In this document: piece by piece, positions 33,290 to 52,659 of the stretch
Position numbering within the stretch: position 1 is the first letter of the stretch
Layout: every line of letters starts with the position of its first letter
Notes under the pieces: generated by a model
Seen by the model: only the letters and a program-made list of their open reading frames with translations
Database searches by the model: none
Told to the model about the DNA's origin: nothing
DNA from: a virus
Taxonomy: Duplodnaviria > Heunggongvirae > Uroviricota > Caudoviricetes
Direction: 5' to 3' (one strand)
Virus record (IMG/VR): IMGVR_UViG_3300045253_000164
Span: 26,314 to 90,313 of that record
DNA length: 64,000 nucleotides
Made by a program: the position numbers and the translations under genes

Positions 33290-33723
33290 TCCATCTGCCG
33301 CGCCCCGAATCCCACCGCCAGGTACAGCGCCGTCGCCGCCGTGTTCTCTGGCTTCAGGTTTACAATCACGCGGGTAATGCCCTGGGTCTTGAGCCAGTCC
33401 AACAGCAACGCAATCGCTTCGCGCATGTAGCCCCTGCGTCGCTGTTCGGGGGCCATCAAGACCTGGCCCAGCTCGATCGACGCGCCGTCGTGGTTGGAGA
33501 CGCCGAGCTGTCCGATGGCCACGCCGTCGTGCTCGACGATGAGCATCGTATCAGTGCCGCTCAAGTACTTCGCAAACCACGCTTCATGCTGTGCCATCGT
33601 CAATTCAGCATTGTGAAAGAACGCCTCACGGCTCGCGTTGCGCCAGACAAGCGTCAGCAGCAAATCGGCCTCGGTGAGGGGGCGCAGCGCGATGCGGGCA
33701 CCGAGAAGCGCGGGCGCTTTCAT
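33277..33723 (-). CDS. GNAT-family N-acetyltransferase
   Basis: IALRPLTEADLL...; motif A QRRRGYMREAI; KPENTAATALYLAVGF tail. Confidence 0.6.
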   Translation of the reverse strand: MKAPALLGARIALRPLTEADLLLTLVWRNASREAFFHNAELTMAQHEAWFAKYLSGTDTMLIVEHDGVAIGQLGVSNHDGASIELGQVLMAPEQRRRGYMREAIALLLDWLKTQGITRVIVNLKPENTAATALYLAVGFGARQMEWMA

Positions 33724-37093: not shown

Positions 37094-37096
37094 CCG

Positions 37097-37369
37097 CTAG
37101 ACTTCTTCCCATCCGCACAACCACAGTGTGTCGAGATTATCGCTGCGGCCGGCCAGTACCACATCCACCATGACATCAATGTCCCTGATGCGCAGGCCGA
37201 ACAAAACATTTGCCGTCTGAACGCAGAGATGAAGCGCGGCTTCCGCGGATCGCGACAAATTGCCACCGACAGATACCGCTGCCTCAATCAGTGACCACGG
37301 ATTCAACCCTCGATAGGGATTCACGCGGTTGCTCAGTCGGTGATCGATGCGAATCCAATTCTGGTTCAT
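37097..37369 (-). CDS. hypothetical protein
   Basis: 90 aa from internal ATG 37369 (MNQNWIRIDH...), with ATGA overlap to the upstream stop. Confidence 0.35.
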   Translation of the reverse strand: MNQNWIRIDHRLSNRVNPYRGLNPWSLIEAAVSVGGNLSRSAEAALHLCVQTANVLFGLRIRDIDVMVDVVLAGRSDNLDTLWLCGWEEV

Positions 37370-38376: not shown

Positions 38377-38377
38377 T

Positions 38378-38692
38378 CTACTTCGTCAGCTCAGCCAATC
38401 GCTCGCGCAGACCTGGGAGTCGTGCGGCCTGCTTCTCGACAAATTCAATCTGCGCGGTCACTACACACATTTCGCACCAGGCCACTGGACGACACCCATG
38501 AGCAAACTCCAACGCTGACAACTGTTCGCCGCTCCACCACTTTGTGCCTGGTCGCGTCTTGCAATTCCCGCAAAGTGCCTGTCCGTCAGGTTTTCTGAAG
38601 TAGGCCTCCTGGGGAATGTACGACCCCACATCAACCACGTAACCCGCCTGCGCGCCGCTGGCCGTTATCTGCCCCACCGAGTAATCGCTCAC
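38378..38692 (-). CDS. small Cys-containing hypothetical protein
   Basis: ~104 aa from GTG 38692 (GTGA overlap with the upstream stop); CGNC...CEMC. The 5' part of the tracked ORF overlaps the next gene and is rejected. Confidence 0.25.
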   Translation of the reverse strand: MSDYSVGQITASGAQAGYVVDVGSYIPQEAYFRKPDGQALCGNCKTRPGTKWWSGEQLSALEFAHGCRPVAWCEMCVVTAQIEFVEKQAARLPGLRERLAELTK

Positions 38693-39624
38693 CGCAGCCC
38701 CATCCCTTCCAGCACCCGCCGCAACCGATGCTGATACGAGTCGCGCCCGCGCACCAACTCGTACGCCCGCTGCGCCATGCCGCCGTCGCCTTCCCGTCGG
38801 AGTCGACGCACGGTGTCGATGAGCCACTCGGGATCCGGCATCCCTTCGCCGCCTGGTCCTGGGATGGGATCGAAGCCGATGAAGTGCTCGCCATCGTTGA
38901 ACAGCTTCAGCGTCGACGGGTTCCTGTCGGCAATCACCACGCATCCCATGGCCATCGCCTCGAACACCCGCGTCGTCACGAAGTCCAGCGTAGAGCAACA
39001 ATAGGTGGCGAGGCTGTTCTGATAGGCGCAGGCGTACAGCGGTCCCCAGACATCACCGAAGAAGGTATGGATATCGGGGGCGCGCTCACGCACGGTGTGC
39101 CAGATGTGCTGGCGTGCCTCGCGGGCGCTGGCCAGTTGGACCAGGTCGTATTCGCGGGAGGCGCCGGAGAATGACGCGCAGTACGGCGGGATCCAGTGCT
39201 CGTCGGCGTCGAACGCCTTGGGCAGCCACTGCACGCCGGCGTCTGCGCCGTTGCACATGATCTCCGCGTAGCGATGCGGCGTTAGGCCCCGCGACCATTC
39301 CATCGCGGCGCCTTCGGAGTCGATGTGCGCCCAGGGAATGTCGGGCAGGTCCCCGTCGGCCCAGCGCAGGCCTTCGCCGCCACTGGCAATGATCGCGCAG
39401 TCGAGAGGTTCAGTGAAGTTCAGCACCGCAATTGTCTCGCGCCACGGGACCGGCATGCTCGTATTGAGAAACGCCTGCGGCTCGCGCCCCCGCGTCCCCC
39501 ACGGCTCCTGGTCGCGCCACGGGCCAACGGTAACGACCTCATGACCGAGCTGCCGCAGCGCCCGAAGGTAGTAGTATGGCAACCCGCAGCGCCGGTGCCA
39601 CGTGCCGAGGAGCAGGATTCTCAT
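38689..39624 (-). CDS. GT-B fold glycosyltransferase (GT1/GT4-like, CgeB-like)
   Basis: Start at MRILLLGTWHRRCG (ATG 39624). The C-terminal DFVTTRVFEAMAMGCVVIAD parallels that of 30672..31718. Confidence 0.55.
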   Translation of the reverse strand: MRILLLGTWHRRCGLPYYYLRALRQLGHEVVTVGPWRDQEPWGTRGREPQAFLNTSMPVPWRETIAVLNFTEPLDCAIIASGGEGLRWADGDLPDIPWAHIDSEGAAMEWSRGLTPHRYAEIMCNGADAGVQWLPKAFDADEHWIPPYCASFSGASREYDLVQLASAREARQHIWHTVRERAPDIHTFFGDVWGPLYACAYQNSLATYCCSTLDFVTTRVFEAMAMGCVVIADRNPSTLKLFNDGEHFIGFDPIPGPGGEGMPDPEWLIDTVRRLRREGDGGMAQRAYELVRGRDSYQHRLRRVLEGMGLR

Positions 39625-39781
39625 GTCGTTGGATACCTGTGATACATTCGGCACATCATGTGGGCAGGTAATAACCCACTAACGCCGCCCCACATTGGCT
39701 GCCACGGCCACACAAACCAGCCGCACAAATAGCAAACATGGTTGTGGTAATAGTTCGCGCCGTCCGACCATCCCTGCGATC

Positions 39782-40705
39782 TCACTCCCGCACCTCGGCA
39801 CTGCTGATCCCATCGCTGAGCCCGTGGTAGGCCTTGCTGACCGCCCAGCAATCCACGCCAACGAAGTAGTGCGCGCGGGCCAGCATCTCGAAAAACGCCG
39901 CATCGCCCACGCCGTGTCGATTGTCCTCGCCCCAGTACTCGACATTGTTGGGGCCGTGGACGCGGCCATACTCGACCCACACCAAACACGCCCCCAGACA
40001 GTTGACGCGGTGCATCACCTGGTTGTGATCACAGCGTCCATCGACGCCGTAGCGCATCAACCCAGGACGCCAGAAGCCCTCTTCAACCCAGGATGCGTGC
40101 GTGTCGGGATCCACCCCGTCGTCGTACAGCGCGCGAAAACTCGCGCCGCCGTTCAACGCGGCGCGCGGGCCGGTCGGCAGCGGGAAGTCCGCCGTCAGCG
40201 GCTGCGGAGGCCCGCTGTTCTGCCACTGGTTGCGGGAGCCATCGGCGCCAAACTGCACTGATCGCAGCCGCCCGTACACGACGTGTTCTTGAGGGTGCGC
40301 ATCGAGATACTCGGCCCGCAGTCGGACACTGTGCGGGTGCAGGACGTCATCGTCGCAGAGATACGTCAGGTACCGCTCGTCACGCCGCAGATGATTCAGC
40401 CCGATGTTGATGGTCCTCGAGTAGGGGATCGTCGCCTTGCGCTCGGCCATCGTGCGATCCGGTCCCATCCACCAGGTCACGCGATCGGTGCTCACCGCGA
40501 CGCCGCCGGCGACGTGCTGCTCGGAGTCCCACGCGGTGAGGCCCTGGGCGTCACGAATGGCGGCGCGCGCCTCAGGATTGCAACCGTCGTCGAGCACAAG
40601 TAACCGCCAGCGGTCGCAGTCCTGCGCCAGCACCGAGGCGATCGCCGCCGCCACCATGCGCGGCCGGTTGTAGGTGGTCAGCAGCACCAGGGTGTCGCGG
40701 CTCAT
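39782..40705 (-). CDS. family-2 (GT-A) glycosyltransferase
   Basis: LVLLTTYNRPRMVAAAIASVLAQDCDRWRLLVLDDGCNPEA plus YLCDDDVL (DxD). Start at MSRDT (ATG 40705, ATGA overlap). Confidence 0.7.
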   Translation of the reverse strand: MSRDTLVLLTTYNRPRMVAAAIASVLAQDCDRWRLLVLDDGCNPEARAAIRDAQGLTAWDSEQHVAGGVAVSTDRVTWWMGPDRTMAERKATIPYSRTINIGLNHLRRDERYLTYLCDDDVLHPHSVRLRAEYLDAHPQEHVVYGRLRSVQFGADGSRNQWQNSGPPQPLTADFPLPTGPRAALNGGASFRALYDDGVDPDTHASWVEEGFWRPGLMRYGVDGRCDHNQVMHRVNCLGACLVWVEYGRVHGPNNVEYWGEDNRHGVGDAAFFEMLARAHYFVGVDCWAVSKAYHGLSDGISSAEVRE

Positions 40706-41646
40706 TCCAGCCTCCGCACCATCGTCAGCCCGAAACCCCACGGGAGCGTCAGCACCTCGAACTCCGGGCGCTGCCGCAGCTCGTTCACCACGATCGCCAC
40801 GCCAGTGTCGGCGTTCGTGGCCGCGCCGTTCTCAAAATAGTCGTGCAGCAGACAGAGTCCGTTGACGCGAACGCGGGGCAGGTAGCGCTCGACGTCAGCC
40901 CGCACCTGGGCCTCGCTGTGATCACCATCGATCCAGAGCAGATCGAGCGTCTCGGGCGGCTCAAAGTCGTTGGAGTTGATCACATGCAGCGCCCACCATT
41001 GGCTCAGCTTGGCCTGGTCGACGTAGCACGCGGCCTTCTCGGCAGCCTCTGCGTCGCACTCCAGCGAATGCAGGAGTCCACCTGTCTCGCGCATGGCGTA
41101 GAGCAACGGCATCGTCGAGATGCCTTCACGTACGCCGATCTCCAACACCACTGGCGGTCGTACAGGTCCCCGAGATTCGGGGTCGGGCCAGTTGACCCAC
41201 TTCGCAATGCTGTAGAGCACCAGCAAGTGCGGCCGTGAGTCGTAGAAGTCGCCGGCCTCCGTCCACCAGGCAGTGTCCCGGCTCAGCGCCACGAGCTCGG
41301 CGTCGCCGAACGGGCCGCGCCAGGGAGCGTTGACGCCGCCCCCCGATGGTCGCGGACTCCCGGGGCGTATGGCGCGTTGGAGGTCCACGCGTTCCGCCGC
41401 CAGCGAGAAATCCAGACGTCGTGGCGCGGTCAACGGCGGCGGTAGAATCGTTGCCCGCGTCGGTTGCAGCGTCGGCTGCGCCAAGCTCACCGGCGCCGAG
41501 CGTGGCGCAGGTGTCTGGGCAACGCTAGTCGCGAAGCGCAGGAAGAAGCTGAGGCCTGTGCGGGCGATCAGCTCTACCTGGTCCGGTGCGAAGCGATCGG
41601 CGAAGGTCGATCGCATCGCGGATTCGAATTGCTCGGCGGCGCTCAT
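40702..41646 (-). CDS. class I SAM-dependent methyltransferase (TylF/MycF-like, probable O-methyltransferase)
   Basis: LEIGVREGISTMPLL (motif I), LLWIDGDHSEAQV...LLHDYF. Confidence 0.6.
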   Translation of the reverse strand: MSAAEQFESAMRSTFADRFAPDQVELIARTGLSFFLRFATSVAQTPAPRSAPVSLAQPTLQPTRATILPPPLTAPRRLDFSLAAERVDLQRAIRPGSPRPSGGGVNAPWRGPFGDAELVALSRDTAWWTEAGDFYDSRPHLLVLYSIAKWVNWPDPESRGPVRPPVVLEIGVREGISTMPLLYAMRETGGLLHSLECDAEAAEKAACYVDQAKLSQWWALHVINSNDFEPPETLDLLWIDGDHSEAQVRADVERYLPRVRVNGLCLLHDYFENGAATNADTGVAIVVNELRQRPEFEVLTLPWGFGLTMVRRLE

Positions 41647-41873
41647 CGCGGATGTCCAGCGTCACAGGCCCACGACGTGGAGCTGCCGACCTCGAAGGCG
41701 TCGTGGGGCCACCACGAGGCACGAATTGGTACGACGGTGATCGATGTACCGTGCGTCAACTCCCTCGCGAGGAAATAGCGCGCGCGGGACACAACGCAGA
41801 AGTCTGCTCCTGGATGCGCAGCCAGCGCGGCACAGAGCCGTTCGCGGAACACTTCGTCGGTCATCTGGTCCAT
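41643..41873 (-). CDS. hypothetical protein
   Basis: 76 aa, translationally coupled between the two MTase paralogues. Confidence 0.35.
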   Translation of the reverse strand: MDQMTDEVFRERLCAALAAHPGADFCVVSRARYFLARELTHGTSITVVPIRASWWPHDAFEVGSSTSWACDAGHPR

Positions 41874-41876
41874 GGG

Positions 41877-42674
41877 CTACAGCTCCACAATCCGGTCGTC
41901 CGGCTCGAAGGCCGGCGACAACACCCGCACCAACGTCAGGCCGAATGAAAACGGTAGTGTCAAGATCTCATAGCACCCCGTCTGCCGCAGCTGTTCCACG
42001 GCGGCGCTGACGTAGCTCGGGAACGGCGGCTGAATCGGCGGATCGCACGGCCAGGGCTTGGAGTAGTAGTCGTGCAGCGCAATGAGCCCTCCGGGCCGCA
42101 CCTGCGGCACGAAGCGCTCGACGTCCTTGCGCACCTGGTCGAGGCCGTGATCGCCGTCGATCAGCAGGAAGTCCAGCGGCCGCCCCAGCGTTGCGCAGTC
42201 GAAGTCGTCGGAGCGCTGGATGCGCAGGTCCCACCACGGCGTCAGCTGGGCCCGCTCGATGACGTCAGCCGCGGCACGCGCCCAGTCCGGATCACACTCC
42301 AGTGACACCAAGCGCCCATTGGCTTCGCGCATCGCGTGCAGCAGGTTCAACGTGCTGACGCCATGACGCACACCAATCTCCAAGCAGAGCGGTGGTCGTA
42401 GCGGCCGCGGCGCGCGGGGGTCGGGCCAATTGATGTTCCTGGCCAGCGCGTAAAGGATCGGCCCATGCGCACGCACATCGAACCAGTCGTCGACGCTCTT
42501 GCCATCAGGGCCGGTGTTGATGAACGCGCGGGTGTCGCGGCTCAGCGCCAGTAGCATAGCGTCATCCCAGGTGGCGCTGGTGACACTGGCGGACGCAGGG
42601 GGGACCGCTGCGGGCACCGCCACCGATGATGGCGGTGTCCCGCAGCGGAGACGATAGAGGGCGTCGAGGTCCAC
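41877..42674 (-). CDS. class I SAM-dependent methyltransferase (paralogue of 40702..41646)
   Basis: CLEIGVRHGVSTLNLL, FLLIDGDHGLDQV...ALHDYY. Confidence 0.6.
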   Translation of the reverse strand: MDLDALYRLRCGTPPSSVAVPAAVPPASASVTSATWDDAMLLALSRDTRAFINTGPDGKSVDDWFDVRAHGPILYALARNINWPDPRAPRPLRPPLCLEIGVRHGVSTLNLLHAMREANGRLVSLECDPDWARAAADVIERAQLTPWWDLRIQRSDDFDCATLGRPLDFLLIDGDHGLDQVRKDVERFVPQVRPGGLIALHDYYSKPWPCDPPIQPPFPSYVSAAVEQLRQTGCYEILTLPFSFGLTLVRVLSPAFEPDDRIVEL

Positions 42675-42681
42675 GGCTTAT

Positions 42682-43032
42682 TCAGACCGTCCAGATTTCC
42701 ACGTCCACCTGCGTCGCCGCGGTGATGGGTAGCGTGATGATGGACGGGCGCGACGGCGTCGGTCCCTGCTGAGGCACCGGCATTTTGTTCTGTGGGGTCC
42801 ATGTCTTGCCGTCGGGTGTCTTGACGATCACGTTCATTTCGCTCGCGCTGCTGGCCTTGATGACCTGATACTGCGCGACCGCGGACAGCGGGTTCAGCAC
42901 GGCGAGTGTCGTCGTGTCCATCGCTACCCACGAGAACGTCGTGCCCGAAGGGAGATCACGGCGGCTGCCGTCCGACATGACCGCGACCGCGCGGACGCTG
43001 ACGACCTGACCGAGTTGCAAAAGGGTGCTCAT
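42682..43032 (-). CDS. bacterial Ig-like (Big_2-like) domain protein
   Basis: 116 aa; LQLGQVVSVRAVAVMSDGSRRDLPSGTTFSWVAMDTTTLAVLNPLSAVAQYQVIKASSASEMNVIVKTPDGKTW fits the Big_2 pattern. Confidence 0.45.
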   Translation of the reverse strand: MSTLLQLGQVVSVRAVAVMSDGSRRDLPSGTTFSWVAMDTTTLAVLNPLSAVAQYQVIKASSASEMNVIVKTPDGKTWTPQNKMPVPQQGPTPSRPSIITLPITAATQVDVEIWTV

Positions 43033-43035
43033 GAC

Positions 43036-43428
43036 TTACTCCTTCTCCCGCAGCAAGCGGGGCTGTAGTTGCGTGATTCGAGACGCGTGCCATTGACCGC
43101 GGCGCTGACGTTCCGCCATGAAGGCGTCGGCAACGTCGAACGCGGCGATCACGATCAGCTCGCTGGCGCGCTCGGCTCCGACCGCCTGTTTCGCAGCGGT
43201 CGCAAGCTCCGGATCAGTAGCCATGCGTGCCAGCAGCACCATGGCGCACTCGTCGCGGAGCGCAGTGTCGGGGTCGTGGCCGTTGAGAACGGTTCCGGTG
43301 GTAGGGCCTATGCGTTCCATCCTGTCCTTCCTACTCGCGCACCTGCAGGTCGGTCCGATGGCCGTGTGCGTGGTAACAGTCGGAATCGAGCCATCACTCG
43401 CGCCTGCTCGGATCACTTCGGTGTCCAT
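43036..43428 (-). CDS. hypothetical protein
   Basis: Tracked ORF 43036..43542; plausible starts at ATG 43428 or 43320; C-terminal helical region. Confidence 0.3.
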   Translation of the reverse strand: MDTEVIRAGASDGSIPTVTTHTAIGPTCRCASRKDRMERIGPTTGTVLNGHDPDTALRDECAMVLLARMATDPELATAAKQAVGAERASELIVIAAFDVADAFMAERQRRGQWHASRITQLQPRLLREKE

Positions 43429-44338
43429 ACGGATGCCCGTATCGCTTGACCACCACGACGTCCGGGACGCTGTGAAAGGGACCGAGGCCGGCGAGCTCCA
43501 GGCGATAGAACCAGCCAGCGTCAGGACAGTCGAAGCGCTCACCAGGCAACCACGATTCCGAAAACGGCGCGTCGTCTATTTCTTCAAGTTGCCGGATGCG
43601 TCCATGCTCTTCATACCGAAAGATTTCCCGCGTTCGCGTTTCTGGCCATTGCGGAATACTCATCGGCAATCCGGCCAAGCCGCCATAGATGAACCCGTCG
43701 GGACCTGTATGCTCAAGCATGTTCGGTACACGCCGCACCATCGGCATCCCGTGGTCACAGCGGTTGGCGATGCGCGCCACGGGTTCGGCGGAGTAGAAGC
43801 TGTTGCGGTCATGCTTGCACTTGCCAGCGCCCTGAAGGAACGACGGCAAGCTGGGTCGTACCCCAAATTCGCCACAGTCAATCCCCTCAGGCAACGAATG
43901 CAGTCCCATTGCTGGCATGGGCGACTTACAGCTTTCCAGCCGCCCGTAAACCACATTCACCTCGGGATGCTCGATCAAGTACCGCACCCGGACTTCGATG
44001 CTGCCCAGCGTAAGAAAATCATCGTCAGGTAAATAGACCACGAAGTCCCCGTGCACGCACGCCATCGCCGTGTTGATGCAGATGGCGCAGCGCTGACCGT
44101 GCTGGCGCTCCTCCGGCGTCGGCGGCGGTCCAGGCTGGACGCACAACAGGCTGCGACCCTCGGTGAAGCACGAGCCGTACTCGGCGAGCACGTCGTGCAC
44201 AGCGTGATCGCTCCAATCGTCGGCGACAATGACCTCGATGTTCGGCCAGGTCTGCGCGAGGATGCTGTCCAGCGCATCACGGATCAACGTTGGCCGATTG
44301 TACGAGCTGAGTACGACACTGACGAGCGGCTCGTTCAT
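43394..44338 (-). CDS. family-2 (GT-A) glycosyltransferase
   Basis: VSVVLSSYNRPTLIRDALDSILAQTWPNIEVIVADDWSD plus VVYLPDDDFL (DxD). Confidence 0.7.
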   Translation of the reverse strand: MNEPLVSVVLSSYNRPTLIRDALDSILAQTWPNIEVIVADDWSDHAVHDVLAEYGSCFTEGRSLLCVQPGPPPTPEERQHGQRCAICINTAMACVHGDFVVYLPDDDFLTLGSIEVRVRYLIEHPEVNVVYGRLESCKSPMPAMGLHSLPEGIDCGEFGVRPSLPSFLQGAGKCKHDRNSFYSAEPVARIANRCDHGMPMVRRVPNMLEHTGPDGFIYGGLAGLPMSIPQWPETRTREIFRYEEHGRIRQLEEIDDAPFSESWLPGERFDCPDAGWFYRLELAGLGPFHSVPDVVVVKRYGHPYGHRSDPSRRE

Positions 44339-44664
44339 GGCTTCTGCCCGTTCGGCACTTCCCGCACCCAGCCGAGCCCTTGCTGCGCCTGCGTGCGGTA
44401 GAAATCCGCGCGGCCCATGGCGCGAGCGAATTGCTCATCGCTCAGCGGGTAGGGCTGCATCCACTCGCGGCCCTCGGCATCGGCCACCGCTGCCTCGGCC
44501 ACCGCCATGCACCACTGCACCAACTCGCCGGGCTTGGTCGTCAGCGCTGCGGTGTTCGTCGCGGCGGCGCGCAGCAAGTCGAGCACGATACGAAAGCGCA
44601 GGTCGAGCTGGAGGCCCTCGTCGCGGTCGTTGCTGAGGGGACTGCGGAAGTACGGCGTGCTCAT
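44335..44664 (-). CDS. hypothetical protein
   Basis: ~110 aa from internal ATG 44664 (MSTPYF...), ATGA overlap; the upstream part of the tracked ORF is rejected. Confidence 0.35.
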   Translation of the reverse strand: MSTPYFRSPLSNDRDEGLQLDLRFRIVLDLLRAAATNTAALTTKPGELVQWCMAVAEAAVADAEGREWMQPYPLSDEQFARAMGRADFYRTQAQQGLGWVREVPNGQKP

Positions 44665-45644
44665 GCGGCCTCCGGGAGTGTACTGTGAATGGCGCACCAG
44701 ACTGTCTCGGCACGGTGGCGCGTGGTGTGGTGACGGAGCCACCAGGCTTGCGCAACCTCCGCCAAGGCATGGGCGGCTATTGAGTCTGCCAGGAGCTGTT
44801 GCACAATGCGGAGAGCCTTGTCTGCGGTGCGAAACAGCGGAGTGACAATGCCCGACAGGCCCTGAATCCCGCAGGGAGCACCCGCGCGTGGTTGGTGACC
44901 ATCCTCCAACACCGGGCAGCACCCATCCGCGATGATCTCGAGGTGCCGGTTGGTGTGGTAACCAAGCCCCGCCGGCGACACGGCAATCAACGCAGACCGA
45001 TTCGCGGCGTGATTCTCCGCAACGTCCCACCGGGAACCGTCGGGCGGCATGACCACGCCCAGCTCGCGCAACCCTTCGCGCAACTGAGCTCGCGTCGAGT
45101 CCGGCGTGCACCAGTCCCACAGATGGGCTGAGTACACGACAGACGGCTCACGCTCGCCCACGGGCACCTGCCGTGAGGCCGGATAGCCGAAGGGCAGGGA
45201 CGTCGCCCAGTTCGCGCCCACCGGCAGTTCGCGCTTGAAGTACGCCACCGGCGCGGCGCCGAGGCACTCCGTGAACAGCGGCTGCGTGTTGTGCGGGTGG
45301 TCTTCAGCATCGTACGCGACGAGGCGATCGCGGGAGGCGTTCAGCAGCCCGGCACGCGCCCAGCTCCGCAGTTGCGACCGTACCTCGCCACGCACCGTCG
45401 GTACGATCACGGCAGCGAACGTCCCGTCGCGCAGGGCTTGCGCCACACGCTCGGCGCTCCAGTCGTGCTGGGGTCGATGCAGATCGCAGTCGAACGTCGC
45501 CGGAGCACCCTCGGACAGATGCAGCGACGGCTTCGGCGGCCAGTCGATCACGTGACCATCACCGAGCAGCTCGCAGAAGCCGTCGTACAGATAGTCCGGG
45601 CCGTAGTCCGGCGACGGATCGGTAAGAAACAGAATATCAGGCAT
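44661..45644 (-). CDS. GT-B-like putative glycosyltransferase paralogue (family of 3)
   Basis: Start at MPDILFLTDPSPDYG (ATG 45644). It shares the N-terminal and C-terminal (AQAWWLRHHTTRHRAE) signatures with 31715..32722 and 37366..38376. First gene of the island operon. Confidence 0.35.
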   Translation of the reverse strand: MPDILFLTDPSPDYGPDYLYDGFCELLGDGHVIDWPPKPSLHLSEGAPATFDCDLHRPQHDWSAERVAQALRDGTFAAVIVPTVRGEVRSQLRSWARAGLLNASRDRLVAYDAEDHPHNTQPLFTECLGAAPVAYFKRELPVGANWATSLPFGYPASRQVPVGEREPSVVYSAHLWDWCTPDSTRAQLREGLRELGVVMPPDGSRWDVAENHAANRSALIAVSPAGLGYHTNRHLEIIADGCCPVLEDGHQPRAGAPCGIQGLSGIVTPLFRTADKALRIVQQLLADSIAAHALAEVAQAWWLRHHTTRHRAETVWCAIHSTLPEAA

Positions 45645-45882
45645 GGGCGCGCGCCGGGGACCGGCGACCGTGGGTGGGGCCATGTCAAAAGCGCGGGTAA
45701 CGAGAGATGGTTCATGTGTCAAGCGGTTTCCGTGCGATGATCGTAAAGATGGCGCCGTGCAGCGCTGGGAGGACCGGATGCACTTCCCAGATCGACCAAC
45801 CGGCGGACTCCAGGGCGTTCAACTGCTGCTCCAGATAGAGCTGGTCGACGTTGGCTTGGATCTTCCAGGTATACGGCATCGT

Positions 45883-47954: not shown

Positions 47955-47967
47955 TCAAGCACCTTGA

Positions 47968-48261: not shown

Positions 48262-48720
48262 TCACCACGAGTTGATCAGCGCCCGGTGGCTGCGCTGACA
48301 CGTGACACCCGTACCCACCACCAGCGTGCACTTCTGCGCCCGCAGCAGCACGGCGTACGAAGCCACAGGCCGATAGCTCAACGTGGCCACCACGGATACC
48401 AACGGCGCGCCGTTGAGACACAGCACAATCAGCGTGAACCGCAGCCGCGCGCCGGCACGATGTGTGGACGAGGCCACCGCGCACTCGGTGTCGACGTTGG
48501 TGTCCAACAGCTGCAGATCGGCAAATCGATCCGCGGGGTAATCCACCATCAGCTCGTAGGCCAATGCATCACCGGGAAGCACCGGCAAGCCATCGGGCAC
48601 GTCGATGTCCACCGCCGCATCCCCGACGGGCACGATCAGCGCCGGCACGCCCTCGTGGAGCTCGGCGTGTGCGGTCAAGGCCGTGACTAACAGTGTGACA
48701 ACGACAATCGTGCGCATCAT
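48262..48720 (-). CDS. secreted protein (signal peptide)
   Basis: 153 aa from ATG 48720: MMRTIVVVTLLVTALTAHA has a hydrophobic core and an AHA cleavage site. The 5' part of the tracked ORF is rejected. Confidence 0.45.
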   Translation of the reverse strand: MMRTIVVVTLLVTALTAHAELHEGVPALIVPVGDAAVDIDVPDGLPVLPGDALAYELMVDYPADRFADLQLLDTNVDTECAVASSTHRAGARLRFTLIVLCLNGAPLVSVVATLSYRPVASYAVLLRAQKCTLVVGTGVTCQRSHRALINSW

Positions 48721-48986
48721 GCCGCCTTCGTCCGCGATGTCCGCTTCGCGTGCCGTTGCGTTGCGGGGTTCCACAATCGGCCCACGCGGCAGGCGTAACA
48801 ACCAGGACCGCACGGGCAGCGCTCTGTCTCGATGCCCGACGTCGTCACCCGGCGCGCCGCCACTGGCAGTGGTTGGCCGGGATGCCAATCCTTCGTACGC
48901 CGGAGTTGATCGATGGTCCGTGCATCGGCTTCCCGGACCGTACCGAACGCGTGCGTGCCTGGTGACCACGTCGTCGCCATAGTCAT
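48717..48986 (-). CDS. small Cys-rich protein
   Basis: ~89 aa from ATG 48986; CPCGPGCYAC; ATGA overlaps at both ends. Confidence 0.35.
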   Translation of the reverse strand: MTMATTWSPGTHAFGTVREADARTIDQLRRTKDWHPGQPLPVAARRVTTSGIETERCPCGPGCYACRVGRLWNPATQRHAKRTSRTKAA

Positions 48987-49990
48987 CGCCCCATCCCCTC
49001 CTGCACCCAACTCGGCGGCAGCTGTTTCGTGATCTCAATCTGCGCAAAGCGCGTCGGCTCCTGGGGGCCGCGCTGGCGCGCCCAATGCGCCATTTCGGCG
49101 AGACCCAGAGCGAGCGGCGTTGACGGTCGGTCGCCGAACACACGGCGGAGCTTGTCGTGCGTACAGTAGGCGTCCCGCACCTCGACGCGCGCCGGCAGAT
49201 GGACGAACGGCGCCTGGGGCATGCCCATTGCCGCCGCTGTCAGATAGGCAATCTCGTTGATCGTGTATGCGGTGTCGGCGCCGACGTTGAAGACCTCCCC
49301 GCAGACGTCGGGTCGGGTCACCGCTTCCGCGATCAGCGGCGCGACGTCCGCGATGTAGCTGAACGCCCGCGTTTGGTTGCCGTCGCCGAAGATGGTCAGC
49401 GGCTCCCCGCGCAAGAGCTGGTTCATGAAGATACCGATGACGTTCCGGTAGCGGTCGCCGATGTGCTGATGTCCCCCGAATACGTTATGAGGACGGAAGA
49501 TCACCGTCTCCAAGCCGAACAGCCGTGCGGCCGTCGCCAGGTGTTGCTCGACCGCGTACTTCGCGATGCCGTAGGGGTCCTCGGGCTGTGGCTGCGTCTC
49601 CTCGGTCATCGGCACCGGCGCCGCGCCATACACCGCCATGCTTGAGGTGAACACGAAGCGCTGGACCCCATGGTTCACTGCAGCTGCAATCAGGTTGCAC
49701 GAGCCCACCAGGTTGTTCTCGTAGTTGAACCGGGGAATGAAGTGGCTGAGCCCCTCCGCGGCATACGCAGCCAGGTGACACACCGCGTCGAAGCGATGGT
49801 CGGTGAACACGCGATGCACGAAGAACGGGTCCGTGATGCTGCCCTGCCAGAAGCTCGCCGCGGGCGGCACGTTGTCCAGAAAGCCGCCGCTCAGATCGTC
49901 GACCGCGCACACCTGATGGCCGGCCTTCAGCAGCTCGGCGGCGACGTGAGACCCGATGAAGCCTGCGGCCCCGGTGACCAGGACGTTCAT
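48983..49990 (-). CDS. NAD-dependent NDP-sugar epimerase/dehydratase (extended SDR)
   Basis: MNVLVTGAAGFIGSHVA (Rossmann GxxGxxG), YGIAKY (YxxxK). Confidence 0.7.
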   Translation of the reverse strand: MNVLVTGAAGFIGSHVAAELLKAGHQVCAVDDLSGGFLDNVPPAASFWQGSITDPFFVHRVFTDHRFDAVCHLAAYAAEGLSHFIPRFNYENNLVGSCNLIAAAVNHGVQRFVFTSSMAVYGAAPVPMTEETQPQPEDPYGIAKYAVEQHLATAARLFGLETVIFRPHNVFGGHQHIGDRYRNVIGIFMNQLLRGEPLTIFGDGNQTRAFSYIADVAPLIAEAVTRPDVCGEVFNVGADTAYTINEIAYLTAAAMGMPQAPFVHLPARVEVRDAYCTHDKLRRVFGDRPSTPLALGLAEMAHWARQRGPQEPTRFAQIEITKQLPPSWVQEGMGR

Positions 49991-50211
49991 GCGGCCCTCC
50001 GCTGACGACAGTCAGGGCAGCGAGAATGCCCATCGGTCTTGCCGCCACACTGACCGCACAACCCCGCAGCGCGGCGTCGGTGGTAACGGTTCAGCGTACG
50101 GGTCTTGGATTTCGCCGAGCATTGGCGGCACAGCACGCGGTTGGCAGGACGCGGCGCGCCGCACTTCTCGCAGAGTCGGAGTTTGCGCCGGCGGCAGAGG
50201 ATGCAGCTCAT
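49987..50211 (-). CDS. small zinc-ribbon-like Cys-rich protein
   Basis: MSCILCRRRKLRLCEKCGAPRPANRVLCRQCS...CGQCGGKTDGHSRCPDCRQ; the ATG at 50211 overlaps the upstream TGA (verified in sequence). Confidence 0.4.
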   Translation of the reverse strand: MSCILCRRRKLRLCEKCGAPRPANRVLCRQCSAKSKTRTLNRYHRRRAAGLCGQCGGKTDGHSRCPDCRQRRAA

Positions 50212-51179
50212 GCCGCCCTCCGCTTTTCCATTCCCAGCTGCCGCGCCTGGTCGTCCACCACGTCCCGCACGATGTCCTCCCAGCGGTCCACGAAGCTCAG
50301 GCCCGTGAGGCGCTGGAGCTTGGTCGTGTCCGGAACTCGGCATTGCATCCGCTGCCACGCCAAGTCGCCGGTCTCTTCCCAGGGGATGTGGTTGACGCCC
50401 TGCGGCAGCACGCCGTACCGCTCCATCACGTCGAGCTGGATCCGCAGCGCGGCGGAGCGCATCGACAACCGCGGCTCAGTGGCACCGACGTTGACCACCT
50501 GGCCCACGGCCTCGGGGGTCTCGGCGAGCGCCAGCAGTGCCCGCACCGTGTCGCTGACGTGCGTGAAGCAGCGTTCCTGCTGTCCGGTGCCGTGGATCGT
50601 GATCGGCTCGCCCTTCAACGCAGCGCGCGCGAAGATCGGTAGCACGAACGCGTGGCGTTGGCCCGACCCGACGCAGTTGAACAGCCGGGCGATGATCGCT
50701 TGGGCGCCGCCCTCCGCATGACTGGCCAGCGCGACGTGCTCCATCGCCAGTTTGGACACCGCATAGCCCCAGCGCGGATGGCAGGAGGGACCGATCACGG
50801 ACTCGTCGACGTCCTCGCGAAACGGCGGCGACGTGTTGGCGCCGTAGACCTCGGAGCTCGAGGTGAAGACAATGGGGCAGCCGGCATACATCGCTAGGCT
50901 ACACAGGTAAGCCGCATCATCGGCGTGTTCCGTCATCATGCGGAACCGCAGGCGCACCACATCGGCAGGCCCCACTATGGCTGCCAGATGAAAGATGGCG
51001 TCGAGCTTCCCCAGACCGGCTTCCCGAACGTCGCATTGACGAAAGTCGATGGCGGGACTTCCGGGCGGCAACGGGTGGTGATCACAGCCAGCCACGTCCC
51101 ACCCCTCGGCCACCAGATGCCGCGCCAAGTGCTGCCCGATGAATCCCGACACTCCCGTAATCAACGCTCGCGTCATCAC
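50208..51179 (-). CDS. NAD-dependent NDP-sugar epimerase/dehydratase (extended SDR)
   Basis: MMTRALITGVSGFIGQHLA, YAVSK. Confidence 0.7.
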   Translation of the reverse strand: MMTRALITGVSGFIGQHLARHLVAEGWDVAGCDHHPLPPGSPAIDFRQCDVREAGLGKLDAIFHLAAIVGPADVVRLRFRMMTEHADDAAYLCSLAMYAGCPIVFTSSSEVYGANTSPPFREDVDESVIGPSCHPRWGYAVSKLAMEHVALASHAEGGAQAIIARLFNCVGSGQRHAFVLPIFARAALKGEPITIHGTGQQERCFTHVSDTVRALLALAETPEAVGQVVNVGATEPRLSMRSAALRIQLDVMERYGVLPQGVNHIPWEETGDLAWQRMQCRVPDTTKLQRLTGLSFVDRWEDIVRDVVDDQARQLGMEKRRAA

Positions 51180-51206
51180 AACCCCTCCACCACCAGACCA
51201 GCGGCG

Positions 51207-52013
51207 CTACTCAATGCCCTTGATCAGCGGAATACCGTTAGATCCGCTCGGGATGTAAACCGTCGTGTGGTTCTGGGACCGGGACATCTCGAACTGCGCC
51301 TTGATCGCTTCATGCTGGAGATACAGCGGCGTCAGCGTCGTATTGATAATCTTCTGTGACTCAGCGATGCCCTTCGCCTCTTCGATGCGTACCTGCGCAT
51401 CCTGCTTCGCAATGTCGATCTCGAACCGCTTCTGTTCGAGCTGCGTCTCTTTGGTGATCTTCTGTTCCTGGGCTTGCGCGACGAGGCCCGGTAAATTGAT
51501 CACGCCAATTACAACCGACTGAATCTCGAAAGGCATGTTGGCGACGTAGGCCGCCAGTTTCTCGTGAACGACCTTCGACATCTCCTCGCGTCGGGCCTTT
51601 GCTTCTAGCGCGTTCAAGCCAGACACAGCTTCGTACACTGCATTGCGGAACGGCTGTTGAATCACGCGGTCGTACCACCAGCCCCCGCCGTAGAGTTCCA
51701 CAAGCAGTTTGACGCTTCCTGACTTCGGGCGCATGACCACGTGCGCGTGAAACTTCAACGACAGATTGTCTGCGGACATGACATCGAACTCTTCGTTGAT
51801 GGTTCGCCACTGCATGTCGATGTTGTCGACCTCAAGCATCCACCCGATTCCCGTTGACATTGGTCCGGTCTGGGTGCCGTAAAACCGCGCCTGTCCAAAT
51901 AGCGCCCCCTTTTTCACGTACCCTTCCCATCCCGCGCCGGTTTCTGGATTGCTGCACCCAGCGCAGCCAGACAATCCTAACGCCATTACAACCATCGCCA
52001 GCAGCCGCTTCAT
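51207..52013 (-). CDS. SPFH/band-7 (prohibitin/HflK-like) lipoprotein
   Basis: Start at MKRLLAMVVMALGLSGCAGC (lipobox LSGC); an SPFH-like core is followed by a coiled-coil C-terminus (QEQKITKETQLEQKRFEIDIAKQDAQVRIEEAKGIAESQK). Confidence 0.55.
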   Translation of the reverse strand: MKRLLAMVVMALGLSGCAGCSNPETGAGWEGYVKKGALFGQARFYGTQTGPMSTGIGWMLEVDNIDMQWRTINEEFDVMSADNLSLKFHAHVVMRPKSGSVKLLVELYGGGWWYDRVIQQPFRNAVYEAVSGLNALEAKARREEMSKVVHEKLAAYVANMPFEIQSVVIGVINLPGLVAQAQEQKITKETQLEQKRFEIDIAKQDAQVRIEEAKGIAESQKIINTTLTPLYLQHEAIKAQFEMSRSQNHTTVYIPSGSNGIPLIKGIE

Positions 52014-52078: not shown

Positions 52079-52621
52079 TCATCCCTCCTTCCGCAACACC
52101 ATCGCGAGGCTCCACTGCGGGCACGCTTCGCTGAACTGCACCAGGCGCGCGTCGCACCACGCCAGCCACGGCCGCGTCGTCTCGGCATCCCACGGCGTTG
52201 GCGATAGACCAAGGACCTCGAGCGCGAGCTCCGGTGGCGACCACTCGTGCCGATGCGGCGTCGCATCGGTGTTCTGCCCCAGCGTGTAGATCGTGTTGGG
52301 AATGACGCAGACCACGCGGCCTCCCGGGCGCACAACCCGCAACCACTCCTGCAACGCGTGGCGCGGCTCGGCCAGGTGCTCGAGCAGGTGCACCGTCAAC
52401 ACGAAGTCGAACGTCGCGTCCACATAGGTCAACGCGCAGGCATTCCCGCACAGCTGGGAGGCGTGAGTCGGCTGCAGGTCGCAGCAGGTGATCTCCGGCC
52501 GCAGCGTGCGACCGCCGGCACCTGGATCGAGACCGTCCCCCTGGCACCAGCGCACCACCGAGGCAATCTCCTGCCGCCACATTGCGTCGGCACAGACCGG
52601 CTGGCCCTCGTAGTACTCCAT
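52079..52621 (-). CDS. class I SAM-dependent methyltransferase (Methyltransf_11-like)
   Basis: Start at MEYYEGQ (ATG 52621; alternative 52651). LDPGAGGRT motif I-like; DFVLTVHLLEHLAEP...VRPGGRVVCVIPN. Confidence 0.55.
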   Translation of the reverse strand: MEYYEGQPVCADAMWRQEIASVVRWCQGDGLDPGAGGRTLRPEITCCDLQPTHASQLCGNACALTYVDATFDFVLTVHLLEHLAEPRHALQEWLRVVRPGGRVVCVIPNTIYTLGQNTDATPHRHEWSPPELALEVLGLSPTPWDAETTRPWLAWCDARLVQFSEACPQWSLAMVLRKEG

Positions 52622-52659
52622 GGGTGTTCGTGCTGACGCGGCTGACTGCATGGGGCGCG

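What the first reader, a model, noticed from the sequence alone, without database searches (positions are those of the whole stretch)
48262..51179. Second sugar-nucleotide module: two SDR epimerase/dehydratases interleaved with Cys-rich mini-proteins and a secreted protein
The operon runs 50208..51179 (SDR), 49987..50211 (zinc-ribbon-like, 8+ Cys), 48983..49990 (SDR), 48717..48986 (Cys-rich), 48262..48720 (signal-peptide protein). Every junction is an ATGA overlap, confirmed in sequence at 50208-50211. These genes plausibly supply the 4-keto-6-deoxy sugar precursor for the DegT enzyme, even though they lie 3-17 kb away across the plus-strand block. Coupling small Zn proteins to SDR enzymes is unusual.
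Basis: partly seen in the sequence, partly recalled or inferred. Interest (0 to 1): 0.55.

Follow-up and report, generated by a model that had tools for sequence, protein, structure and literature searches.

The report
Phage sugar-nucleotide genes plus orphan mini-ORFs
Two ordinary sugar-nucleotide enzymes (a UDP-glucuronate-decarboxylase-like and a GalE-like epimerase) head a large glycosylation gene island in an uncultured phage, and the small cysteine-rich genes between them are orphan phage ORFs with no sign of being partners of the enzymes.

Summary
The five ORFs and all four ATGA start/stop overlaps are in the sequence as described. The window is an uncultured 64% G+C tailed phage.

- **SDR1 (50208-51179)** is not a 4,6-dehydratase. 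It has the [S/T]-S-E triad, R-W-x-Y-x3-K and an Arg at the ArnA R619 position. Its family profile and its AlphaFold model match UDP-glucuronate decarboxylases best (human UXS1, ArnA, PbgP3, Pcryo_0617).
- **SDR2 (48983-49990)** is a GalE-type 4-epimerase (S-M-A triad) from a very large, conserved bacterial family.
- **Island membership:** a related phage contig keeps the order methyltransferase, SDR1, GalE-like SDR, then glycosyltransferases. The pair is therefore the head of the 30.6-45.7 kb glycosylation island, split here by inserted genes.
- **Link to DegT:** DegT matches ArnB best, so a 4-keto-pentose to aminopentose route is plausible but unproven.
- **Mini-proteins:** none has a homologue anywhere searched. 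The same slots hold unrelated small ORFs in the relative, small CxxC ORFs are scattered across the genome, and 4-nt overlaps are the genome's norm. "Zn-protein/SDR coupling" is not supported.

This is a new member of a known kind, of modest interest.

The parts
50208..51179 (-). SDR1: extended SDR, UDP-glucuronate (uronate) decarboxylase-like (UXS/ArnA type). GVSGFIG at 9-15, S108-S109-E110, R136-W-G-Y139-AVS-K143, R281-V-P283.
   Evidence: Pfam Epimerase 9e-44. NCBIfam best hits are the UDP-4-keto-pentose/UDP-xylose synthase at 100.6 bits and ArnA at 84 bits, both below cut-off. Family profiles hit human UXS1 best, at 267 and 194 bits. The AF2 model has pLDDT 93.8, and all top 20 Foldseek PDB hits are ArnA, UXS, PbgP3 or Pcryo_0617. 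R281 aligns with the ArnA R619-equivalent Arg of PbgP3.
49987..50211 (-). B: 74-aa Arg/Cys-rich ORF with five CxxC pairs; a putative zinc-ribbon-type orphan protein.
   Evidence: ATGA overlaps at both ends and an SD motif. Pfam DZR scores 23.2 bits, below the 27.3 cut-off. No homologue in the 5.8-billion-protein set, phage records, PHROGs or 129 loci. Codon support is weak. The AF2 single-sequence model has pLDDT 51 and is uninformative.
48983..49990 (-). SDR2: GalE-type NDP-sugar 4-epimerase-like extended SDR. GAAGFIG at 7-13, S116-S117-M118-A119, Y140-GIA-K144.
   Evidence: Pfam Epimerase 1.5e-55. TIGR01179 GalE scores 158 bits, the best NCBIfam hit but below cut-off. Best PDB hits are T. 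maritima UDP-glucose 4-epimerase 4zrm at 3e-54, then 6wjb. More than 8000 relatives at about 60-65% identity occur across bacterial phyla, with 56-64% relatives in metagenome and viral contigs.
48717..48986 (-). D: 89-aa orphan ORF with one CxCx3CxxC cluster.
   Evidence: ATGA overlaps and an SD motif. No Pfam, NCBIfam or PHROG hit. No match in phage records or fetched loci. Codon support is marginal.
48262..48720 (-). E: 152-aa exported protein (Sec-type signal peptide, AHA|E), probably one beta-sandwich domain; orphan.
   Evidence: Strong coding signal. N-terminal hydrophobic segment. An exhaustive HMMER search found only itself plus weak hits (1e-7, 4e-4) to repeats of giant cadherin-like/Big_9 proteins.
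52079..52621 (-). MT52: SAM-dependent methyltransferase (Methyltransf_11). It directly abuts SDR1 in the related phage and so belongs to the conserved module.
   Evidence: Pfam 4.8e-12. 46% identical to the gene directly upstream of the SDR1 homologue in L045/L130.
51207..52013 (-). SPFH/Band 7 lipoprotein (lipobox LSGC), inserted between MT52 and SDR1; probably a moron, not part of the sugar module.
   Evidence: Pfam Band_7 5e-17 and phrog_200 'lipoprotein' 6.7e-33. 56% G+C against 66-68% in neighbours. Absent from this position in L130.
33277..37093 (-). Possible downstream users of the SDR1 product: NodU-like carbamoyltransferase (35651-37093), unknown 265-aa protein (34853-35650), ArnB/PseC-like DegT aminotransferase (33720-34856), GNAT acetyltransferase (33277-33723).
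   Evidence: Pfam. NCBIfam gives PseC 226 bits and ArnB 216 bits, both below cut-off. Best PDB hits are ArnB 8sng/1mdo/4oca at about 1e-50.
30672..45683 (-). Main glycosylation island: at least 7 glycosyltransferase-like genes with Pfam hits (PF13524-type and GT2) and two Methyltransf_24 methyltransferases, all without TM helices. Colinear with the related phage, where it directly follows the SDR pair.

Best explanation
The window is part of an uncultured, 64% G+C tailed phage. The stretch 48262-52621 is the upstream end of its glycan-synthesis island. The island has been broken up by inserted genes that have nothing to do with sugars.

**SDR1.** It is a UXS/ArnA-type NAD-dependent oxidative decarboxylase. 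It most likely takes the host's UDP-glucuronic acid (or a related UDP-uronic acid), oxidises C4, loses CO2, and yields UDP-4-keto-pentose and/or UDP-xylose.

**SDR2.** It is a GalE-type 4-epimerase that widens the donor pool, for example UDP-Xyl to UDP-L-Ara, or UDP-Glc to UDP-Gal.

**Downstream steps.** The soluble glycosyltransferases and methyltransferases of the island use these donors. They build a decorated glycan on a cytoplasmic target, most likely virion proteins. In this phage the ArnB-like DegT and the adjacent GNAT may also turn the 4-keto-pentose into an N-acetylated 4-amino-pentose.

**Small ORFs.** B, D and E (with F and G downstream) and the SPFH lipoprotein are lineage-specific phage ORFs or morons. 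They sit in the gaps of the island and are translated through the usual 4-nt coupled junctions. They are not dedicated partners of the SDRs.

**Shown:** family and fold assignment of both SDRs, catalytic motifs, synteny, and absence of homologues for the minis.

**Inferred:** substrate identity, release of the keto intermediate, the link to DegT, and the glycosylation target.
For: **Phage context.** Terminase and capsid are present. Capsid relatives occur only in viral contigs.

**SDR1**
- The [S/T]-S-E triad, R136/Y139/K143 and R281/P283 are invariant in 55 relatives.
- PMC10338323 states that the TSE triad and the Arg aligned with ArnA R619 are the marks used to recognise glucuronic acid decarboxylases.
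- R281 aligns with that Arg in PbgP3.
- Family profiles hit human UXS1 first, at 267 bits for 55 sequences and 194 bits for the 7 closest. Next comes the Pcryo_0617 oxidoreductase/decarboxylase, 23-35 bits behind. Epimerases are at least 35 bits behind.
- The AF2 model (pLDDT 93.8) has ArnA, UXS, PbgP3 or Pcryo_0617 in all top 20 Foldseek hits.
- Some bacterial relatives share an operon with a UDP-sugar 6-dehydrogenase.

**SDR2**
- It has an S-M-A triad with no Glu.
- Its best hits are GalE-type.

**Island membership.** L045/L130 keeps the order MT52, SDR1, small ORF, GalE-like SDR, small ORF, then homologues of GT44661, GT2_43394, MT24, a GT, GT2_39782 and GT30672, at 37-58% identity.

**DegT.** Its best solved relatives are ArnB.

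**Minis**
- No homologues were found.
- The small ORFs in the same slots in L045 are unrelated.
- CxxC mini-ORFs are scattered over the genome.
- The SPFH gene has aberrant G+C and is absent in L130.

**Target.** No TM helices occur in any island enzyme.
Against: - SDR1 alone scores about equally against MoeE5 (a UDP-GlcA 4-epimerase), TunA and ArnA/UXS, at 80-90 bits. It is far below every NCBIfam equivalog cut-off. Subfamily assignment therefore rests on profiles, fold and motifs, not on orthology.
- GDP-mannose 4,6-dehydratases also carry a T-S-E triad (my own knowledge), so the triad alone does not exclude dehydration.
- No UDP-glucose 6-dehydrogenase is encoded in the window or in L130, so the substrate must come from the host.
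- UXS-type enzymes normally keep the keto intermediate bound, which weakens the DegT link.
- The related phage shows no DegT in the available 20.7 kb.
- The second SDR of the relative is not orthologous to SDR2, at 26% identity.
- The glycosylation target was not addressed by any direct evidence.
- Lack of homologues for B and D cannot show that they are functionless.
Confidence: 0.6

Rival explanations
1. One or both SDRs are NDP-hexose 4,6-dehydratases that make a 4-keto-6-deoxyhexose, which DegT aminates and the GNAT acetylates (a viosamine/perosamine/bacillosamine-type route).
For: PF16363 (GDP_Man_Dehyd) hits both SDRs. SDR1 has a Glu after the catalytic Ser/Thr, as dehydratases do. DegT also scores well on PseC, whose substrate is a 4-keto-6-deoxy sugar.
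Against: NCBIfam dehydratase models score far lower for SDR1 than the decarboxylase models: RmlB 56 bits, Gmd 20 bits, against 100.6 and 84. SDR1 lacks the Asp-Glu pair of RmlB-type enzymes. Profile and fold searches put decarboxylases first and RmlB-type dehydratases 80-110 bits lower. SDR2 has M-A in place of the acid/base pair.
Confidence: 0.12
2. An Arn-like aminopentose branch is the main purpose of SDR1. On this reading SDR1 releases UDP-4-keto-pentose as ArnA does. The ArnB-like DegT makes UDP-4-amino-4-deoxy-L-arabinose, the GNAT N-acetylates it, and a glycosyltransferase installs it.
For: Two independent components each match Arn enzymes. SDR1 shares the ArnA-type xGPxxxPRWxYxxSK motif and has ArnA as its top fold hits. 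DegT's three best PDB hits are ArnB at 172-178 bits, against 120 bits for PseC. A GNAT overlaps the DegT stop by 4 nt.
Against: The profile search favours UXS (a reducing enzyme) over ArnA by 50-80 bits. The genes lie 14 kb apart. The relative L130 has the SDR pair but no visible DegT. DegT is below the ArnB equivalog cut-off and scores slightly higher on PseC. In bacterial relatives the neighbouring DegT belongs to a WbpE-like upstream step, not to 4-keto amination.
Confidence: 0.3
3. The Cys-rich mini-proteins are dedicated partners of the SDRs (Zn-dependent scaffolds, chaperones or regulators), which would explain the interleaving and the translational coupling.
For: There are exact ATGA overlaps and SD motifs on both sides of B and D. 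A small ORF also sits between and after the two SDRs in the related phage.
Against: B and D have no homologues anywhere searched. The small ORFs in the relative are unrelated in sequence, one is Cys-free and it is of doubtful coding status. Thousands of bacterial and phage SDR2 relatives show no such neighbour. CxxC mini-ORFs and other small ORFs are interleaved throughout this genome, and 4-nt overlaps are its norm.
Confidence: 0.05
4. The module serves modification of the host envelope (serotype conversion, LPS or capsule change, superinfection exclusion) rather than virion glycosylation.
For: An exported protein (E) and a lipoprotein (SPFH) are co-transcribed. Closest bacterial SDR1 relatives sit in polysaccharide loci with Wzy, GT-C/PMT_2 and GT2 genes.
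Against: No flippase, polymerase, GT-C or polyprenyl-phosphate transferase is present, and no TM helix occurs in any island enzyme. The island lies next to the head genes, and in distant relatives SDR2 and the methyltransferases follow the capsid gene directly. No integrase was seen in the window.
Confidence: 0.15

Closest known systems
UDP-glucuronic acid decarboxylases of the extended SDR family (human UXS1; E. coli ArnA C-terminal domain; Burkholderia PbgP3; Ralstonia UDP-4-keto-pentose/UDP-xylose synthase; Psychrobacter Pcryo_0617)
   Same: SDR1 shares the Rossmann GxxGxxG, the [S/T]-S-E triad, R-x-x-Y-x3-K, the C-terminal R-x-P Arg at the ArnA R619 position, full-length profile alignment and the fold.
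   Different: It is only 24-27% identical to them and far below the equivalog cut-offs. It has no fused formyltransferase domain, unlike ArnA. It is phage-encoded, and its substrate and product are untested.
GalE-type UDP-hexose 4-epimerases (T. maritima TM0509, PDB 4zrm; PDB 6wjb/6wj9)
   Same: SDR2 matches at 3e-54 over its whole length. It has the Ser plus YxxxK and no acid/base pair.
   Different: It is below the TIGR01179 cut-off (158 against 262 bits). It belongs to a distinct, very conserved environmental family whose substrate is not known.
Adjacent UDP-xylose synthase plus UDP-xylose 4-epimerase gene pair of Sinorhizobium meliloti (recalled from memory, not checked here)
   Same: A UXS-like gene sits next to a GalE-like gene, which would give UDP-Xyl and UDP-L-Ara.
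   Different: No sequence comparison was made. Here the pair is in a phage and is separated by an orphan ORF.
Arn (PmrHFIJKLM) L-Ara4N pathway
   Same: An ArnA-like decarboxylase is present together with an aminotransferase whose best solved relatives are ArnB.
   Different: There is no formyltransferase, ArnC-type membrane GT2, ArnD, ArnT or ArnE/F. The genes are 14 kb apart, and a GNAT stands in place of the formyl chemistry.
Phage virion glycosylation (mycobacteriophage capsid and tail-tube glycans; Freeman et al. 2023, as cited in PMC12619734) and nucleotide-sugar epimerase genes of phages (phrog_540)
   Same: Phage-encoded soluble glycosyltransferases and methyltransferases are present. 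Both SDRs hit phrog_540.
   Different: The gene set is far larger (at least 7 GT-like genes with Pfam hits, several methyltransferases, a carbamoyltransferase, an aminotransferase) and includes its own sugar-nucleotide enzymes. The target is not shown.

Membership tests
Extended SDR, NAD-dependent epimerase/dehydratase (PF01370) | Score above the Pfam gathering threshold; N-terminal GxxGxxG; catalytic Ser/Thr plus YxxxK | tested here: met
   SDR1 scores 150.1 bits and SDR2 188.7 bits against a cut-off of 20.9. Motifs are located.
UDP-glucuronate decarboxylase (UXS/ArnA type), for SDR1 | T/S-S-E triad after strand beta-4 | tested here: met
   S108-S109-E110. S109 and E110 are invariant in 55 relatives. 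The criterion is stated in PMC10338323.
UDP-glucuronate decarboxylase (UXS/ArnA type), for SDR1 | Conserved Arg aligned with ArnA R619 | tested here: met
   R281 (CRVPD) aligns with the Arg of QNRVPK in the ArnA homologue PbgP3. R281 and P283 are invariant in the family.
UDP-glucuronate decarboxylase (UXS/ArnA type), for SDR1 | Closest solved relatives by profile and by fold are decarboxylases | tested here: met
   Human UXS1 is first at 267 and 194 bits. The Foldseek top 20 are all ArnA, UXS, PbgP3 or Pcryo_0617.
UDP-glucuronate decarboxylase (UXS/ArnA type), for SDR1 | Score above the curated equivalog cut-off (NF008872 at 294 bits; NF005998 at 777 bits) | tested here: not met
   100.6 and 84.1 bits. 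SDR1 is not an orthologue of either named enzyme.
UDP-glucuronate decarboxylase (UXS/ArnA type), for SDR1 | NAD+-dependent conversion of UDP-GlcA to UDP-4-keto-pentose or UDP-xylose | not testable with these tools
   An enzyme assay is needed.
NDP-hexose 4,6-dehydratase (RmlB / Gmd), for SDR1 | Asp-Glu (RmlB) acid/base pair and membership of TIGR01181 or TIGR01472 | tested here: not met
   SDR1 has Ser-Glu, not Asp-Glu. TIGR01181 scores 56 bits against a 365 cut-off, and TIGR01472 scores 20 against 415.
UDP-glucose 4-epimerase GalE (TIGR01179), for SDR2 | Ser plus YxxxK without a Glu or Asp-Glu next to the Ser | tested here: met
   S116/S117-M118-A119 and Y140-GIA-K144.
UDP-glucose 4-epimerase GalE (TIGR01179), for SDR2 | Score above the equivalog cut-off (262.3 bits) | tested here: not met
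   158 bits. It is the best NCBIfam hit but below cut-off. SDR2 is GalE-like, not a proven GalE orthologue.
Double zinc ribbon (PF12773), for B | Score above the gathering threshold; paired CxxC knuckles | tested here: inconclusive
   23.2 bits against a 27.3 cut-off, with no stretch significant on its own. Five CxxC pairs are present. The AF2 model is of low confidence.
ArnB (UDP-4-amino-4-deoxy-L-arabinose aminotransferase), for the DegT at 33720-34856 | Score above NF008658 cut-off (631 bits) | tested here: not met
   215.6 bits, while PseC scores 226 bits. ArnB is nevertheless the best solved relative.
Sec-exported protein, for E | n-region, hydrophobic h-region and an AxA cleavage motif | tested here: inconclusive
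   The sequence MMRTIVVVTLLVTALTAHA|E and a Kyte-Doolittle segment at 1-19 were seen. No dedicated signal-peptide predictor was available.

The most novel reading that the evidence does not exclude
A lineage of uncultured high-G+C phages carries a self-sufficient, soluble glycan factory. It comprises a UXS/ArnA-like decarboxylase, a 4-epimerase, an ArnB-like transaminase, a GNAT, a NodU-like carbamoyltransferase, several O-methyltransferases and at least 7 glycosyltransferases. This factory would coat virions with a methylated, carbamoylated glycan containing pentose or aminopentose. That would be the first phage-encoded Arn-like aminopentose route and a much more elaborate virion glycosylation than the mycobacteriophage case. 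A weaker add-on is that the orphan Cys-rich proteins regulate or scaffold it.
Probability: 0.15. Interest if true: 0.6.

Novelty: new member of a known kind. Interest (0 to 1): 0.3.

Why it matters
On its own the finding is ordinary. Phages often carry nucleotide-sugar epimerase/dehydratase genes (phrog_540) and many small orphan ORFs.

Its value lies in annotation. It corrects the predicted chemistry from a 6-deoxyhexose route to a uronate-decarboxylation (pentose) route. It also shows by synteny that the SDR pair belongs to one large glycosylation island that has been split by inserted genes.

If the island does decorate virions, this phage group would be a good system for studying complex, phage-encoded protein glycosylation and its role in host recognition or immune evasion.

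Tried and rejected
- **DNA-level relatives:** blastn of 47600-52900 against 50,697 phage records gave no match.
- **Close relatives of SDR1 and DegT in IMG/VR:** none found.
- **Homologues of B, D and E:** none for B in the 5.8-billion-protein index. None for B or D in phage records. None in PHROGs, Pfam or NCBIfam. An exhaustive HMMER search for E returned only itself plus two weak repeat hits.
- **Structure of B:** the single-sequence AF2 model has pLDDT 51 and is unusable.
- **Promoter and terminator scan of 45.5-54.5 kb:** counts were at the level of shuffled controls.
- **tRNA scan for host clues:** none found.
- **Unknown 265-aa protein next to DegT:** no PDB or family hit.
- **DegT near bacterial SDR1 relatives as evidence for 4-keto amination:** 27 of 80 loci have one. 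I rejected this because the operons examined are WbpA/B/D/E-like, where the aminotransferase acts upstream of the SDR.
- **A Band_7 gene plus a zinc-ribbon gene near an SDR2 relative in a bacterial contig:** I judged this a coincidence, because the Band_7 proteins share no similarity. The zinc-ribbon gene there runs off the locus, is not in the ORF list, and was not compared with B.
- **Literature on PDB 8VR2/Pcryo_0617 and on Freeman et al. 2023:** neither is held in the library.

Full report
**1.

Reading 48200-51300 on the minus strand and the ORF list confirm five consecutive ORFs.

| ORF | Coordinates | Length | Notes |
|---|---|---|---|
| SDR1 | 50208-51179 | 323 aa | GTG start; an ATG follows one codon later |
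| B | 49987-50211 | 74 aa | Five CxxC pairs, 10 Cys, 22% Arg |
| SDR2 | 48983-49990 | 335 aa | |
| D | 48717-48986 | 89 aa | One CPCGPGCYAC cluster |
| E | 48262-48720 | 152 aa | N-terminus MMRTIVVVTLLVTALTAHA\|E |

All four junctions are ATGA overlaps, and each start has a GGAGG-like motif upstream. An independent gene caller made the same calls on the identical Logan contigs.

Two further small CxxC ORFs follow: 48081-48254 and 47694-47954.

Codon statistics trained on 18 confident genes strongly support SDR1, SDR2 and E. B shows no whole-codon signal, because its composition is extreme. B and D show only a moderate synonymous-codon preference (0.18 and 0.16, against 0.30-0.33 for the SDRs and -0.11 for the antisense of B). 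B and D are therefore probable genes, not proven ones.

Four-nucleotide overlaps are the usual junction throughout this genome (gene tables). They do not single out this stretch.

**2. Context**

The window is an uncultured tailed phage with 64% G+C, and nearly all genes are on the minus strand.
- It encodes a large terminase (37-1908), a major capsid protein (24875-26122) and several N6/N4 DNA methylases.
- No cultured phage is similar at the DNA level. The best capsid relatives in IMG/VR are 50% identical or less.
- Between 30.6 and 45.7 kb lies a glycosylation island. It holds five PF13524-type and two GT2 glycosyltransferases, two Methyltransf_24 enzymes, a NodU-like carbamoyltransferase, a DegT aminotransferase and a GNAT.
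- None of these proteins has a predicted TM helix.
- No flippase, polymerase or GT-C was found.

**3. What SDR1 is**

Both large ORFs are extended SDRs and are only 31% identical to each other.

SDR1 on its own scores 80-90 bits against MoeE5, TunA, PbgP3, ArnA and UXS. Its best NCBIfam models are the bifunctional UDP-4-keto-pentose/UDP-xylose synthase (100.6 bits) and ArnA (84 bits). Both are far below their cut-offs. RmlB scores 56 bits, GalE 46 and Gmd 20.

The alignment with ArnA and PbgP3 shows a shared FxS[ST]SEVYG...ED...GP..(K/H)PRWxYxxSK block. It also places SDR1 R281 (CRVPD) on the Arg of PbgP3 that corresponds to ArnA R619.

In 55 relatives the invariant positions include S107, S109, E110, Y112, R136, Y139, K143, N168, R281 and P283. 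PMC10338323 states that most glucuronic acid decarboxylases carry a TSE triad. It also states that the Arg aligned with ArnA R619 has been used to pick them out of gene clusters.

Profile and fold searches agree with this.
- A profile of the 55 sequences finds human UXS1 first (267 bits, full length). The Pcryo_0617 oxidoreductase/decarboxylase follows at 232 bits. PelX-like epimerases, ArnA/PbgP3 and apiose/xylose synthase then score 185-196 bits.
- A profile of only the seven closest sequences gives the same order: 194 bits, then 171, then 159 or less.
- An AlphaFold2 model (pLDDT 93.8) has ArnA, UXS1, PbgP3 or Pcryo_0617 in all of its top 20 Foldseek PDB hits.

In Nostocales genomes, members of this family share an operon with a UDP-sugar 6-dehydrogenase. 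Fourteen of 80 bacterial loci have one within 8 kb, although many of those loci are related to each other.

I conclude that SDR1 is a divergent member of the UDP-uronate oxidative decarboxylase group, not a 4,6-dehydratase. Whether it releases the 4-keto-pentose as ArnA does, or reduces it to UDP-xylose as UXS does, cannot be read from the sequence.

**4. What SDR2 is**

SDR2 has S-M-A where SDR1 has S-S-E. Its best matches are the GalE model (158 bits, below the 262 cut-off) and T. maritima UDP-glucose 4-epimerase (3e-54).

It belongs to a very large and very conserved family.
- More than 8000 proteins are about 60-65% identical to it, from Acidobacteriota, Chloroflexota, Gemmatimonadota, Elusimicrobiota and others.
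- At least 577 metagenome loci carry a relative.
- In bacteria the gene stands alone or next to a single glycosyltransferase.
- Homologues at 55-59% identity occur in other environmental phages. In two distant capsid relatives the gene lies 5-6 kb downstream of the capsid gene among methyltransferases.

**5. The pair belongs to the island**

SDR1's closest phage relative (P0006, 40% identity) lies on a 63.7-kb Logan contig (L045/L130). The gene order there is a methyltransferase (46% identical to MT52), the SDR1 homologue, a 69-aa ORF, a 386-aa GalE-like SDR and a 74-aa ORF. Homologues of GT44661, GT2_43394, MT24, a PF13524-type GT, GT2_39782 and GT30672 then follow, at 37-58% identity.

In the window the same series is interrupted at several points.
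- The SPFH lipoprotein gene (56% G+C against 66-68% around it) sits between MT52 and SDR1.
- B sits between the two SDRs.
- D, E, F, G, a plus-strand DNA methylase with its own zinc-ribbon ORF, and two more small ORFs sit between SDR2 and the first glycosyltransferase.

It also shows that the interleaved genes are insertions.

The second SDR of the relative is GalE-like by its PDB hits but is not orthologous to SDR2 (26% identity). The pairing of a decarboxylase type with an epimerase type is therefore conserved in kind only.

**6. The link to DegT**

DegT's three best solved relatives are ArnB (172-178 bits), ahead of TlmJ (166) and PseC (120). The NCBIfam models for PseC (226 bits) and ArnB (216 bits) score alike, and both are below cut-off. 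A GNAT overlaps the DegT stop codon.

An ArnA-like decarboxylase together with an ArnB-like transaminase suggests a route from UDP-GlcA through UDP-4-keto-pentose to a UDP-4-amino-pentose and then its N-acetyl derivative. I give this about 0.3, for three reasons.
- The profile evidence favours the reducing UXS type.
- The relative shows no DegT, GNAT or carbamoyltransferase in the 20.7 kb available.
- The DegT genes found near bacterial SDR1 relatives (27 of 80 loci) belong to WbpA/B/D/E-like operons, where the aminotransferase acts before the SDR.

No UDP-glucose 6-dehydrogenase is encoded in the window or in L130. The uronate must therefore come from the host.

**7. The mini-proteins**
- **B:** below the Pfam DZR threshold (23.2 against 27.3 bits).
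  - No relative was found in the 5.8-billion-protein index, in phage records, in PHROGs or in 129 fetched loci.
  - Its single-sequence model is uninformative.
- **D:** equally orphan.
- **E:** an exhaustive HMMER search found only itself and two weak hits to repeats of giant cadherin-like/Big_9 proteins. That fits a small exported beta-sandwich domain.
- **The relative's small ORFs:** the ORFs in the same slots are unrelated, one is Cys-free, and it has poor coding statistics.
- **Other small ORFs in this genome:** at least six small CxxC ORFs are scattered over the window, including an FmdB-like one inside the island. Non-Cys small ORFs also sit between many island genes.

The idea that Zn mini-proteins are coupled to the SDRs therefore has no support beyond adjacency. 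The simplest reading is that they are lineage-specific phage ORFs occupying permissive gaps.

**8. Target and mechanism**

This part is inferred. All island enzymes are soluble, and no lipid-linked export machinery is present. The island also lies beside the head genes. The most likely target is therefore cytoplasmic, probably virion proteins, as is known for mycobacteriophages (cited in PMC12619734). Envelope modification through host machinery, and DNA glycosylation, are not excluded.

**9. Verdict**

It is wrong on the chemistry: decarboxylase plus epimerase, not dehydratases. It is unsupported on the Zn-protein coupling. The finding is a new member of a known kind, and its interest is modest.

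Noticed in passing
window 30672-45683 (minus strand): A large, all-soluble glycosylation island. It holds five PF13524-type and two GT2 glycosyltransferases, two Methyltransf_24 enzymes, a NodU-like carbamoyltransferase, an ArnB/PseC-like DegT and a GNAT. Small unknown ORFs lie between many of the genes. The island is colinear with Logan phage contig L045/L130. Its target is unknown.
   Followed up: partly
window 51207-52013 (minus strand): An SPFH/Band 7 lipoprotein (lipobox LSGC, phrog_200) with 56% G+C against 66-68% in neighbours. It is absent from the same position in the related phage, so it looks like a recently inserted moron.
   Followed up: partly
window 32719-32895, 46397-46579 (+), 47694-47954, 48081-48254, 61940-62122: More small CxxC...CxxC zinc-ribbon-type ORFs are scattered over the genome. 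They include an FmdB-like one (MPTYEYHCPRCG...) inside the glycosylation island and one directly upstream of the plus-strand DNA methylase.
   Followed up: no
window 1909-3414, 46566-47534 (+), about 55651-56469: There are three N6/N4-type DNA methyltransferase genes in 64 kb. One lies on the opposite strand and splits the glycosylation island.
   Followed up: no
window 57719-59242 (minus strand): A 507-aa protein with an N-terminal type I dockerin domain (28.7 bits), which is unusual in a phage. The rest of the protein has no family hit.
   Followed up: no
window 5916-11816, 13312-15618, 15620-20299 (minus strand): Three very large proteins (1966, 768 and 1559 aa) lie downstream of the head genes. 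The only domain hits are a Laminin_G_3 lectin-like domain and a weak glycine-rich domain. They are presumably tail or fibre proteins.
   Followed up: no
L009 11800-17702 and L035 about 13000-19000: In distant capsid relatives from IMG/VR, several methyltransferases (Methyltransf_23, _24, _11) and the SDR2 homologue follow the capsid gene directly. This hints that head-proximal glycan or methylation modules are typical of this phage group.
   Followed up: partly
L174 3010-8984 (Scytonema hofmanni) and L148 6788-13404: Bacterial members of the SDR1 family sit in WbpA/B/D/E-like operons. These carry a UDP-sugar 6-dehydrogenase, a GFO/IDH/MocA oxidoreductase, a hexapeptide acetyltransferase and a DegT. 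This suggests decarboxylation of a diacetamido-uronic acid nucleotide in those organisms.
   Followed up: partly
L039 4163-10608: The 49%-identical bacterial SDR1 relative lies among a PMT_2 (ArnT-like GT-C), a UbiA prenyltransferase, a GT2, a YdjC-like protein and several radical SAM/B12 enzymes. This is an unusual lipid-linked glycan locus.
   Followed up: no
L130 1-2164: The related phage encodes a 736-aa ART-PolyVal (ADP-ribosyltransferase polyvalent) protein upstream of its glycosylation island.
   Followed up: no
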